Notes: generated by a model from the letters alone, not told the origin. A stretch of 64,000 nt of DNA from Escherichia coli (GCF_003790525.1 NZ_CP033635.1); one strand, 5' to 3'; shown: positions 56,534 through 57,746, counted from the first letter of the stretch. Numbers and translations are program-made.

Positions 56534-57391
56534 ATGGCAATGAAAACTCAATTAACACCAGTAGCGGCTCGTGATTTGCAAATCATTGAGTACCTCGGTC
56601 AACGCGTGGTGACGACTGAGCAACTGGCGGCTGGATATGGCGCTTCTGAGCAGATGATTACCAATAACTTTAACCGTAACAAATCACGCTTCACTGAGGG
56701 TAAACACTATTTCAAGCTCTACGGTAATGATGTTCAAATTTTGCGCAACTCTTTAGGGGATGCACAAATATCAAATAAAGCACGGTCACTAACACTGTGG
56801 ACAGAACGCGGAGCAGCAAACCACGCAAAAATACTGGAAACAGAGCAGTCATGGCGCTATCACGAAGACCTTGTTGAGTTCTACTTCACTCATCGGGAAA
56901 ACATCGATGTACAGCGCCTGCCATCCCGCAAGGAACTCGCAATGATGGTCATCGAGGCCGAAGAACGCGCCGAAGCTATGGCTCTGGAAAATAAAACGCT
57001 TTCTGAAACCGTGGACAGCCTGGAAAAACATTTCTCTAAAGGAATGACCGTCCCTCAGTTCTGCCGTGCGCTGAACGGCGTAAACACAAGCAAAATGATG
57101 GGGTGGTTGTCCGAACGTAACTGGGTATTCAACGAACAACGCGATCCAGAAAAAGCCCCTCGCTGGCGCACAGCTTCTTATGCCCGTGACCGATATCTGA
57201 CCGAAGAGGCAACACAAATCACTCCGCACGGGAAAGATCCGTTCACGAAATTCACGCCCGTACTGCTGGAAAAAGGGTGTCACCGTTTATACCAGCTTTA
57301 CATGAAGGGCAAACTTCCAATGAAGAAAAACTGGAACGGCGAATATCGACACGACAAAGCCATTTACACGCCGGAGGCCGGACATGAATAA
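56534..57391 (+). CDS. antirepressor-like protein (ORF6N N-terminal + KilAC/Ant C-terminal domains)
   Basis: N-terminal ...TTEQLAAGYGASEQMITNNFNRNKSRFTEGKHYFKL... fits the ORF6N pattern; C-terminal MTVPQFCRALNGVNTSKMMGWLSERNWV fits KilAC; RBS AAGGAGA. Confidence 0.7.
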   Translation: MAMKTQLTPVAARDLQIIEYLGQRVVTTEQLAAGYGASEQMITNNFNRNKSRFTEGKHYFKLYGNDVQILRNSLGDAQISNKARSLTLWTERGAANHAKILETEQSWRYHEDLVEFYFTHRENIDVQRLPSRKELAMMVIEAEERAEAMALENKTLSETVDSLEKHFSKGMTVPQFCRALNGVNTSKMMGWLSERNWVFNEQRDPEKAPRWRTASYARDRYLTEEATQITPHGKDPFTKFTPVLLEKGCHRLYQLYMKGKLPMKKNWNGEYRHDKAIYTPEAGHE

Positions 57392-57746
57392 CTCAACCAC
57401 AGCAATCATGAACTACGACCCGAATATGACCTTATGCGGACGCATGGCAAAACAAACGGTCAGACTGACGCTTGGTCAATGGGAATACCGCGAAACATTC
57501 GAGGTGGCTGTTGTCGGTAATATCACGGGGCTGGATGTTATCAGGTCAGCCATTGAGAACCTGTACGAAAGCCTGCCGTATGAAGAAATTCACAACGCCA
57601 AAACAGGGAGTACAGAAGTTTATGCCACCGTGCGTATTGGCGATCTGGAATGCACAGACGAAGAACTGCTTGGCGAATACTGGCTGGAATCCATGCTGAT
57701 CGCCGCAGAAATTATCAGCATTGAGCCAGCGGGAACATTTTCATAA
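57384..57746 (+). CDS. hypothetical protein (overlaps 3' end of antirepressor-like gene)
   Basis: 120-aa ORF. Confidence 0.5.
   Translation: MNNSTTAIMNYDPNMTLCGRMAKQTVRLTLGQWEYRETFEVAVVGNITGLDVIRSAIENLYESLPYEEIHNAKTGSTEVYATVRIGDLECTDEELLGEYWLESMLIAAEIISIEPAGTFS

What the first reader, a model, noticed from the sequence alone, without database searches (positions are those of the whole stretch)
56534..57746. Antirepressor-like ORF6N/KilAC protein with an overlapping downstream gene
A 285-aa protein with ORF6N-like N-terminal and KilAC-like C-terminal motifs is the architecture of phage Ant antirepressors. Its presence implies a second layer of lysogeny control, or cross-induction of other prophages. 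The next ORF (120 aa) overlaps its 3' end by 8 bp and is probably co-translated.
Basis: partly seen in the sequence, partly recalled or inferred. Interest (0 to 1): 0.5.

Follow-up and report, generated by a model that had tools for sequence, protein, structure and literature searches.

The report
Ordinary prophage Ant-like early gene
This is a real but commonplace prophage gene of the "antirepressor-like" ORF6N/KilAC class, sitting inside the repressor-controlled early operon of a lambda-like prophage, followed by a small overlapping gene of unknown function that is not its dedicated partner.

Summary
Both ORFs exist as described: 56534-57391 (285 aa) and 57384-57746 (120 aa), overlapping by 8 bp (ATGAATAA). 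The N-terminal ORF6N domain is solid (Pfam E 3.3e-21). The C-terminal KilAC call is weak for this protein alone (E 0.0015). It holds at family level: the family consensus hits Pfam ANT at 1.3e-7, and 11 of 51 relatives match at E<=0.001. The 120-aa protein is DUF5406, acidic and well folded, with no functional clue. It usually follows other genes, so the pair is not a dedicated module.

The gene lies in a ~45-kb lambdoid prophage inserted in yecE. It sits 2.3 kb downstream of a pL-like promoter, packed in the cI-to-xis-int operon. It has no promoter of its own, no LexA box and no immI-type regulators. CI has a LexA-type self-cleavage domain. The protein is therefore probably silent in the lysogen and made only after derepression. 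It is not a P22-style second immunity layer.

Most likely it promotes lytic commitment or prophage cross-talk. A host-directed role for the KilAC domain (cell division or SOS) is a serious rival.

A 99% identical protein is already catalogued as an ORF6N domain protein. Low interest.

The parts
56534..57391 (+). Ant-like gene, 285 aa (33 kDa, pI 8.9): ORF6N domain + helical linker + KilAC-like domain
   Evidence: ORF. PHROG_63 'anti-repressor Ant' 8.2e-43 over residues 14-277. 1724 homologues, best 99% identical and named 'ORF6N domain-containing protein'. AF2 mean pLDDT 88.8. pI and mass.
56520..56525 (+). Shine-Dalgarno AAGGAG, 8 nt upstream of the Ant-like ATG; only 12 nt separate this gene from the stop of the preceding ORF
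   Evidence: Read directly from the sequence and ORF coordinates.
56579..56833 (+). ORF6N domain (residues 16-100; the predicted folded unit runs to about residue 118)
56927..57031 (+). Long single helix (residues 132-166), acidic linker between the two domains; possible coiled-coil or dimerisation element (inferred)
   Evidence: AF2 secondary structure H132-166. Weak bZIP_1 hit over residues 143-169. Linker pI 5.0.
57011..57301 (+). Divergent KilAC/ANT-like C-terminal domain (residues 160-256; basic, pI 9.5 for residues 171-285)
   Evidence: Pfam ANT i-E 0.0015 for this protein. 11 of 51 family members match at E<=0.001 and 31 of 51 at E<=0.1, best 3.4e-8. The family consensus hits ANT at 1.3e-7, model 3-106 of 108. 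Collinear but weak hhalign to the canonical KilAC of the phage 1717 Roi protein, P 6.8e-4.
57373..57377 (+). Shine-Dalgarno GGAGG for the DUF5406 gene, inside the 3' end of the Ant-like gene, 6 nt before the ATG
   Evidence: Sequence; conserved in loci L002-L007.
57384..57746 (+). DUF5406 gene, 120 aa, acidic (pI 4.2), function unknown; overlaps the Ant-like gene by 8 bp (57384-57391)
54182..54211 (+). pL-like promoter (TTGACA-18-TAACAT) heading the operon that contains the finding; flanked by ATCAA-N7-TTGA(T/C) operator-like palindromes at 54170-54186 and 54218-54234
   Evidence: Best promoter match in 52000-61000, 10 of 12 positions. The ATCAAG/CTTGAT half-site motif is also repeated in the cro-cI intergenic region 53306-53400. 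Control by CI is inferred, not shown.
53351..54118 (+). CI-type repressor with a LexA/UmuD (S24) self-cleavage domain; the true start is probably the ATG at 53429
   Evidence: PHROG_4 transcriptional repressor 2.6e-52 and a UmuD-like hit. NCBIfam LexA and UmuD partial hits over residues 164-243. GDSM and KR catalytic motifs and a C-G candidate cleavage site are read from the translation.
59205..60810 (+). Excisionase (59205-59441) and tyrosine integrase (59497-60810), at the distal end of the same operon and at the prophage right end
   Evidence: PHROG_539 excisionase 5.4e-40. Integrase 99% identical to the integrase of locus L008. yecE resumes at 60837.

Best explanation
The 285-aa protein belongs to the modular ORF6N/Bro-N/KilA-N/pRha + KilAC class of phage early regulators, the class usually annotated 'antirepressor'. 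It is carried as an accessory gene in the early-left (pL-type) operon of a lambdoid prophage inserted in yecE.

Proposed mechanism. In the lysogen, CI holds the pL-like promoter at 54182-54211 shut and the gene is silent (inferred). After DNA damage CI cleaves itself, or a phage infects a naive cell; the operon is then transcribed and the protein is made together with about 14 other small early proteins (inferred from the gene packing). It then acts downstream of the switch as a feed-forward factor that favours lytic development. It would do this by protein-protein binding to repressor molecules: residual or newly made CI, and/or repressors of heteroimmune co-resident prophages. The helical linker probably dimerises the protein, and the ORF6N winged-helix-like domain supplies DNA or partner recognition (inferred).

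It is neither the trigger of induction nor a P22 immI-type second immunity system. The downstream DUF5406 gene is translated from its own conserved SD, probably coupled to termination of the Ant-like gene. It is an independent mosaic accessory gene of unknown function.
For: Domain identity: ORF6N at 3.3e-21. KilAC at family level: 1.3e-7 for the family consensus, and 11 of 51 relatives at E<=0.001. PHROG_63 'anti-repressor Ant' at 8.2e-43.

Modular shuffling typical of the class: the C-terminal module is found behind pRha (19 proteins), Bro-N (7), ORF6N (6), AntA (4), KilA-N (4) and P22_AR_N (1).

Position: tightly packed same-strand genes run from 54266 to int. The strongest promoter match lies just after cI, with operator-like repeats shared with the cro-cI region. 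There is no significant terminator excess (12 found against 9.6 expected) and no LexA box near the gene.

CI has an S24 self-cleavage domain.

Placement in relatives: orthologues occupy the same slot in E. coli prophages and in phages Fostie and SaltyDalty. A 39-40% identical paralogue sits directly after cro in relatives with the same immunity. The family is therefore always placed in a repressor-controlled early operon.

Precedents from papers. The Phi24B ant gene lies in an early operon, and its deletion cuts late-promoter activity to 27-56% of wild type after induction (PMC3064807); the phage 1717 Ant, taken here as the same type, is ORF6N + P22_AR_C. Fels-1 FsoA is a left-operon antirepressor under a cleavable CI-like repressor and acts on another prophage (PMC3121763). 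P1 Ant1/2 carry KilAC, and native AriS promotes lytic growth (PMC9043618).
Against: No binding or expression data exist for this protein or any close relative.

The gene does not co-vary with immunity. A 77% identical orthologue goes with an unrelated CI, whereas an 88% identical CI goes with a paralogue that is only 39-40% identical. This argues against a cognate Ant-CI pair, although known antirepressors can be promiscuous.

The part of the Stx-phage Ant that resembles P22 Ant (P22_AR_C) is absent here.

The C-terminal module also occurs in the lytic vibriophage ICP1, which (from general knowledge) has no lysogeny repressor to counter.

Experiments on isolated KilAC domains show host-directed effects, not antirepression (PMC9043618, PMC5944126, bioRxiv 10.1101/2024.01.05.574328).

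KilAC membership of this particular protein is sub-threshold on its own.
Confidence: 0.4

Rival explanations
1. Host-directed early protein of the Kil/AriS type. The KilAC-like domain binds a conserved host protein such as FtsZ (division arrest) or RecA (damping of SOS). The ORF6N domain adds a phage-specific regulatory or DNA-binding activity. The gene would then be the functional counterpart of lambda kil or Rac kilR in the early-left operon, and not an antirepressor.
For: Isolated KilAC domains have host-directed activity in three systems. In Listeria AriS the KilAC domain alone blocks the SOS response (PMC9043618). In Phi11 Gp07 the KilA-C domain causes filamentation in E. coli (PMC5944126). 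The single-domain KilAC protein CreP causes filamentation and was tested for FtsZ interaction by co-immunoprecipitation (bioRxiv 10.1101/2024.01.05.574328). The C-terminal module is present in the lytic phage ICP1. The gene does not co-vary with the immunity type, as expected for a conserved host target. It lies in the operon where lambdoid phages carry kil-type genes (general knowledge), and no other kil candidate was recognised among the neighbours.
Against: The C-terminal domain is a very divergent KilAC: 19 bits for this protein and P 6.8e-4 against a canonical KilAC, so activities may not transfer. The host effects were mostly seen on overexpression. At native level AriS did not inhibit SOS and instead promoted lytic growth (PMC9043618). 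Nothing was tested here.
Confidence: 0.3
2. Sequence-specific DNA-binding early transcription or replication accessory factor, Roi- or Rha-like. Both globular domains would bind DNA, the helical linker would dimerise the protein, and it would tune phage early or late gene expression directly, without touching a repressor or a host protein.
Confidence: 0.2
3. The Ant-like gene and DUF5406 form a dedicated two-gene module (for example effector plus modulator, or toxin plus antidote) whose stoichiometry is set by the 8-bp overlap.
For: The 8-bp overlap and SD are conserved between the window and E. coli orthologous loci. The two partners have opposite charge: basic KilAC-like domain, acidic DUF5406. 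A single-domain KilAC protein acts as a toxin in a CRISPR-associated toxin-antitoxin pair (bioRxiv 10.1101/2024.01.05.574328).
Against: In 81 loci encoding DUF5406, only 6 have an ORF6N gene upstream. Most have a 275-aa lipoprotein with an SPFH-like sequence (my reading; not profile-tested), three have an unrelated 212-218-aa protein, and one has a transposase insertion. Phage Fostie has the Ant-like gene followed by a Lar-like gene instead. The loci are highly redundant E. coli isolates, so the counts are not independent, but at least three distinct upstream partners exist.
Confidence: 0.05

Closest known systems
Stx-phage Ant (Phi24B type; gp36 of Stx2-converting phage 1717 used here as its representative)
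   Same: The N-terminal ORF6N domain is 40% identical (E 5e-27). It is encoded inside a repressor-controlled early operon and not in an immI region (PMC3064807). Deleting Phi24B ant reduces late-promoter activity after induction, which is the role proposed here.
   Different: Its C-terminal domain is P22_AR_C (3.1e-23), not KilAC. It lies in the rightward nin region upstream of Q, not in the leftward operon. I did not align Phi24B's own sequence; equivalence with the 1717 gene rests on position and on the annotated similarity to P22 Ant.
Roi (pRha + KilAC; HK022/933W type; gp37 of phage 1717)
   Same: It carries the KilAC/ANT domain (3.7e-31). The C-terminal family of the window protein aligns collinearly with it over about 121 columns. 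It is also a lambdoid early-operon accessory gene.
   Different: Its N-terminal domain is pRha, not ORF6N. Pairwise BLAST to the window protein is not significant. The C-terminal-only profile comparison gives only P 6.8e-4.
P1/P7 Ant1/Ant2 and P1 KilA (founders of the KilAC domain)
   Same: They share the KilAC/ANT C-terminal domain family and the two-domain, shuffled N-terminus design (PMC9043618; bioRxiv 10.1101/2024.01.05.574328).
   Different: Their N-termini are AntA/AntB or KilA-N. P1 ant lies in a dedicated immI region with its own control (general knowledge). They were not aligned here.
Listeria phi10403S AriS, S. aureus Phi11 Gp07 and A. baylyi CreP
   Same: All carry a KilAC domain, and AriS and Gp07 have variable N-terminal DNA-binding-type domains. 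AriS is an early phage protein that promotes lytic growth at native level (PMC9043618).
   Different: AriS has an AntA/AntB N-terminus, Gp07 has Bro-N and CreP has none. They come from Firmicutes or Acinetobacter. Their demonstrated activities (SOS inhibition, filamentation) have not been tested for this divergent KilAC subfamily.
P22 Ant (immI)
   Same: Only the label 'antirepressor' and membership of the same PHROG-level annotation class.
   Different: P22 Ant is P22_AR_N + P22_AR_C, and neither domain is detected here. P22 ant has its own promoter and the Mnt/Arc/sar controls (general knowledge). Here there is no separate control region.
Fels-1 FsoA (functional analogue only)
   Same: It is encoded in the left operon of a prophage whose CI-like repressor is cleavable. 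It is controlled by that repressor and not by LexA, is dispensable for its own prophage's induction, and acts on another prophage's repressor (PMC3121763).
   Different: It is a small protein related to GftA/GfoA, with no ORF6N or KilAC domain. There is no sequence relationship.

Membership tests
ORF6N domain family (Pfam PF10543) | Significant match to the family profile over its full length | tested here: met
   E 3.3e-21, 75.8 bits, model 2-86 of 86, residues 16-100. NCBI names the 99% identical protein 'ORF6N domain-containing protein'.
ORF6N domain family (Pfam PF10543) | Predicted winged-helix-like DNA-binding fold, related to the KilA-N/Bro-N/APSES class | tested here: inconclusive
KilAC / ANT domain family (Pfam PF03374) | Significant match of this protein to the family profile | tested here: inconclusive
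   i-E 0.0015, 19.3 bits, though nearly full length (model 11-105 of 108). Precomputed Pfam lists PF03374 for only a few close homologues.
KilAC / ANT domain family (Pfam PF03374) | The homologous family as a whole is linked to the profile | tested here: met
   The consensus of the C-terminal family hits ANT at 1.3e-7, 32.3 bits, model 3-106 of 108. 11 of 51 members match at E<=0.001, best 3.4e-8. The C-terminal-only profile aligns collinearly to the canonical KilAC of Roi, though weakly (11.4 bits; P 6.8e-4).
P22-type immI antirepressor | P22_AR_N / P22_AR_C domains | tested here: not met
   Neither domain appears in the Pfam scan of the protein. P22_AR_C is readily detected in the Stx-phage Ant control.
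P22-type immI antirepressor | Separate immunity region with its own promoter and dedicated regulators (Mnt/Arc type) | tested here: not met
   There is a 12-nt gap to the upstream ORF and no promoter-like site between 54211 and the gene on the + strand. Neighbouring ORFs match only unknown-function PHROGs.
SOS-controlled antirepressors (Gifsy GfoA/GftA, 186 Tum type) | A LexA box in front of the antirepressor gene, paired with a non-cleavable repressor | tested here: not met
   The only perfect LexA-box matches in the prophage control region are at 16179-16222, in front of a dinI-like gene; none lies upstream of 56534. CI has an S24 peptidase domain.
Early-operon Ant (Phi24B type) | Encoded in a CI-repressed early operon and expressed on derepression | tested here: inconclusive
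   Gene order, the pL-like promoter and the shared operator-like repeats support it. No transcription data are available.
Functional antirepressor (any type) | Binds a phage repressor and relieves repression | not testable with these tools
   This needs two-hybrid, pull-down or reporter assays. Indirect evidence is mixed: the gene does not co-vary with CI type.
AriS-like dual-function regulators | C-terminal KilAC that inhibits the host SOS response; N-terminal AntA/AntB, Bro-N or pRha domain | tested here: inconclusive
   A KilAC-like C-terminus is present but divergent. The N-terminus is ORF6N, which is not one of the three listed types (PMC9043618). The activity cannot be tested here.
DUF5406 (Pfam PF17400), for the 120-aa ORF | Significant full-length match to the family profile | tested here: met
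   E 3.6e-21, model 1-116 of 116. All 55 homologues carry PF17400.

The most novel reading that the evidence does not exclude
The acidic, well-folded DUF5406 protein occupies the slot that a Lar-like restriction-alleviation gene holds in phage Fostie. It could be an uncharacterised early anti-defence or host-takeover protein. In this lineage it might have become functionally coupled to a KilAC-type host-directed effector, giving a new two-protein early module.
Probability: 0.06. Interest if true: 0.45.

Novelty: already known. Interest (0 to 1): 0.14.

Why it matters
It matters little beyond correct annotation. The result shows that the gene is a typical mosaic accessory gene of enterobacterial lambdoid prophages, and that it is wired to be expressed after derepression, not to trigger it. 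The label 'antirepressor' should therefore not be read as evidence for a P22-like second immunity system.

The general open question remains what ORF6N/Bro-N/pRha + KilAC proteins actually do: antirepression, host division or SOS control, or DNA binding. This locus would be a convenient E. coli test case, but it offers no special leverage on that question.

Tried and rejected
1. Sequence search of the PDB for both proteins gave only chance-level hits (E >= 0.28).

2. NCBIfam has no family for either protein.

3. PADLOC gave only weak matches of the ORF6N domain to candidate system PDC-S05 (2.9e-8), and nothing for DUF5406 or the antisense ORF. I did not treat this as evidence for a defence role.

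5. A literature search for DUF5406 returned zero papers.

6. A LexA-box search found none near the gene, so I rejected the Gifsy/186-type SOS-controlled antirepressor model.

7. The dedicated-pair hypothesis for Ant + DUF5406 was rejected on gene context.

8. The full-length hhalign of alignment A2 against Roi gave 98.7% probability. I discounted it because 19 of the 51 A2 members share Roi's pRha N-terminus. The C-terminal-only comparison is much weaker.

9. The antisense ORF 56849-57283 (144 aa) inside the gene has no hit in PADLOC, the only library it was tested against. I treated it as spurious.

10. No exact attL/attR repeat of 10 nt or more was found. Only an imperfect TTAACTG(C/T)GTG core was seen by eye.

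11. Terminator-like hairpins at 56497-56511 and 57841-57861 are no more frequent than in shuffled sequence (12 found against 9.6 expected).

Full report
OBSERVATION. The junction reads GGAGGCCGGAC-ATG-AAT-AA. The second ATG therefore starts 8 nt before the end of the first gene's TAA stop, and a GGAGG Shine-Dalgarno lies 6 nt upstream of it. The first gene has its own AAGGAG 8 nt before its ATG. It begins only 12 nt after the stop of the preceding 168-aa ORF. The junction sequence, including the SD and the ATGAATA[A/G] overlap, is conserved in orthologous loci whose proteins are about 77% identical. Both are real genes. The 285-aa protein has 1724 relatives at E<=0.001 in the word-indexed search, the best 99% identical and named 'ORF6N domain-containing protein [Escherichia coli]'. 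It also matches 2745 clusters at 50% identity in the exhaustive search. The 120-aa protein has 55 relatives, all Enterobacterales or metagenomic, and all carry PF17400.

DOMAINS OF THE 285-aa PROTEIN. Pfam gives ORF6N (PF10543) at 3.3e-21 over residues 16-100. ANT/KilAC (PF03374) scores only i-E 0.0015 (19.3 bits) over residues 160-256, although the match spans model positions 11-105 of 108. PHROGs places the whole protein (residues 14-277) in phrog_63 'anti-repressor Ant' at 8.2e-43. NCBIfam has no model.

To decide the KilAC question I aligned 51 proteins that share the C-terminal module (alignment A2). Eleven match ANT at E<=0.001 and 31 at E<=0.1, with a best value of 3.4e-8. A consensus sequence emitted from an HMM of the C-terminal columns hits ANT at 1.3e-7 over model positions 3-106 of 108. 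The same C-terminal profile aligns collinearly with the canonical KilAC domain of the Roi protein of Stx phage 1717, which itself scores 3.7e-31 against ANT. That alignment is weak, however: 11.4 bits in hmmsearch and P 6.8e-4 in hhalign. A full-length hhalign gave 98.7% probability, but it is inflated by pRha N-termini shared between Roi and 19 members of A2, so I do not rely on it.

The conclusion is that the C-terminal half is a divergent subfamily of KilAC.

MODULARITY. In the exhaustive search the two halves hit different sets of proteins. The C-terminal module occurs behind pRha (19 proteins), Bro-N (7), ORF6N (6), AntA (4), KilA-N (4) and P22_AR_N (1). This is the classic domain shuffling described for this class, as summarised in PMC9043618 and in bioRxiv 10.1101/2024.01.05.574328, both citing Iyer et al. 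2002.

In Stx phage 1717 the nin region carries two such genes side by side: 'Ant' (ORF6N + P22_AR_C) and 'Roi' (pRha + KilAC). The window protein combines the N-terminal type of the first (40% identity, E 5e-27) with the C-terminal type of the second. The C-terminal module is also present in the lytic vibriophage ICP1 (36% identity over residues 160-285).

CONTEXT. The flanking genes are aspS, yecD, a split yecE, cmoA and cmoB. The window is therefore an Escherichia chromosome carrying a prophage of about 45 kb inserted in yecE. The N-terminal yecE fragment ends near 15975 and the rest resumes at 60837.

The prophage is lambdoid. On the minus strand it has lysis genes, a Q-like antiterminator, primase and helicase, plus a cII-like ORF and a cro-like ORF (53022-53294). 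On the plus strand, from 53351 onward, come CI and a long run of tightly packed genes ending in xis (59205) and int (59497-60810).

CI matches repressor PHROG_4 (2.6e-52) and has LexA/UmuD-type hits over residues 164-243. The GDSM and KR motifs are visible in the translation, so it is probably RecA-inducible by self-cleavage.

The best sigma-70 match in 52000-61000 is TTGACA-18-TAACAT at 54182-54211, 64 nt after the cI stop. It is bracketed by ATCAA-N7-TTGA(T/C) palindromes whose half-site also recurs in the cro-cI intergenic region. I read this as a CI-controlled pL analogue; this is an inference.

The finding lies 2.3 kb downstream of that promoter. There is no intervening promoter-like site on the + strand and no terminator excess over shuffled sequence. 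No LexA box lies near the gene. The only perfect LexA-box matches in this part of the prophage are at 16179-16222, in front of a dinI-like gene at the prophage left end.

Its conserved core starts at Met9 (MNYDPN). However, only the ATG at 57384 has an SD, and NCBI's annotation of the E. coli orthologue uses the same overlapping start. The 8-bp overlap is therefore most likely real.

Among 81 loci that encode DUF5406 (80 viral contigs plus one E. coli genome locus), only 6 have an ORF6N gene immediately upstream. Most have a 275-aa lipoprotein with an SPFH-like sequence (my reading; not profile-tested). Three have an unrelated 212-218-aa protein and one has a transposase insertion. Conversely, phage Fostie has the Ant-like gene followed by a Lar-like gene. 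These loci are redundant E. coli isolates, so the counts are not independent, but the partners clearly vary. The overlap is ordinary operon packing, with probable translational coupling, and is not a sign of a dedicated pair.

WHAT IT MOST LIKELY DOES. Shown: the domain composition, the gene order and the conservation. Inferred: repression by CI, and expression only after induction or on infection.

The wiring excludes two models. The first is the P22 immI model, which needs a separate control region and P22_AR domains. The second is the Gifsy/186 model, which needs a LexA-controlled antirepressor paired with a non-cleavable repressor (PMC3121763).

The wiring does match two documented situations. 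The first is the Phi24B ant gene, which lies in an early operon; its deletion lowers late-promoter activity to 27-56% of wild type after induction (PMC3064807). The phage 1717 Ant of the same type is ORF6N + P22_AR_C. The second is Fels-1 FsoA, a left-operon antirepressor under a cleavable CI-like repressor. FsoA is irrelevant to Fels-1's own induction but inactivates the Gifsy-2 repressor (PMC3121763).

I therefore favour, at about 0.4, a feed-forward or cross-talk factor that acts after derepression by binding repressor proteins.

The main rival, at about 0.3, is a host-directed role for the KilAC domain. Isolated KilAC domains block SOS in Listeria (PMC9043618) and cause filamentation (PMC5944126; bioRxiv 10.1101/2024.01.05.574328). 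The module occurs in a lytic phage. The gene also does not co-vary with immunity: a 77% identical orthologue goes with an unrelated CI, whereas an 88% identical CI goes with a 39-40% identical paralogue placed just after cro.

A pure DNA-binding role like that of Roi comes third, at about 0.2, supported only by weak fold resemblance. None of the three can be settled without experiments.

NOVELTY AND VERDICT. A 99% identical protein is already in NCBI, and the family is abundant in Escherichia, Salmonella, Enterobacter, Klebsiella and Cronobacter prophages. The architecture is covered by an existing PHROG. No complete E. coli genome among 5426 holds this exact 2-kb combination at 80% coverage or more, which is ordinary lambdoid mosaicism.

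The finding is real and correctly recognised at the domain level. It is ordinary, and its functional interpretation as a second layer of lysogeny control is not supported by the locus wiring.

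Noticed in passing
window 16174-16486: Two perfect LexA-box matches (CTGTTTATCTATACAG at 16179-16194 and CTGTATATAAACACAG at 16207-16222) follow a TTGACA. They precede an 82-aa DinI-family ORF (16238-16486, phrog_189 2.8e-27) at the prophage left end. This is an SOS-controlled dinI with no antirepressor ORF behind it, unlike the Gifsy dinI-gfoA operons.
   Followed up: partly
window 16869-19002 (- strand): Prophage cargo next to the left end. A 538-aa protein has a YadA-type trimeric autotransporter C-terminus (8.8e-21) and about six tandem repeats of roughly 33 aa ([33 protein letters not shown]). It is preceded by a 151-aa ORF with a weak sigma-70 region-4-like HTH.
   Followed up: no
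window 15880-15975 and 60837-61562: The prophage splits yecE. The N-terminal fragment is on the left and residues 32-272 of the PRK10302 model are on the right. Only an imperfect core, TTAACTG(C/T)GTG, is shared at the two junctions. The flanking genes aspS, yecD, cmoA and cmoB indicate an Escherichia chromosome.
   Followed up: partly
window 45396-47778: An IS-type transposase (phrog_3598, 6.3e-174) and a 368-aa ORF of unknown function (phrog_410) lie on the + strand between the Q-like antiterminator (47957-48379, -) and the lysis genes. In Stx phages this slot holds the toxin genes.
   Followed up: no
L015 592-1386 and L052 974-1774 (viral contigs), compared with window 53022-54118: In prophages with nearly the same immunity region (cro 91% and CI 88% identical), a full-length paralogue of the Ant-like gene, 39-40% identical, sits directly after cro in the rightward operon. 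The 77% identical orthologue in L002/L003 accompanies an unrelated CI. The gene family therefore moves between the two early operons and does not track immunity type.
   Followed up: partly
window 54266-54694: The first gene behind the pL-like promoter encodes a 142-aa protein with an XRE-type HTH in its C-terminal half. It matches phrog_4836 'CII-like regulator' at 1.9e-58 and gives weak hits to DicA/RstR-type repressors and to RmrA/CapH-type defence regulators. This is an unusual occupant of the position where lambda has N.
   Followed up: no
window 51855-52475 (- strand): A 206-aa ORF lies between the cII-like gene and the helicase. Its sequence carries an HNH-like motif (EVNHKDGNKLNNHASNLEW), so it may be a homing-type HNH endonuclease. 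NCBIfam gave no hit, and this reading is from the sequence only.
   Followed up: no
window 57384-57746: DUF5406 is acidic (pI 4.2) and confidently folded, but has no informative structural neighbour. In phage Fostie the slot after the Ant-like gene holds a Lar-like restriction-alleviation gene instead. This hints, weakly, at an anti-defence or host-takeover role.
   Followed up: partly
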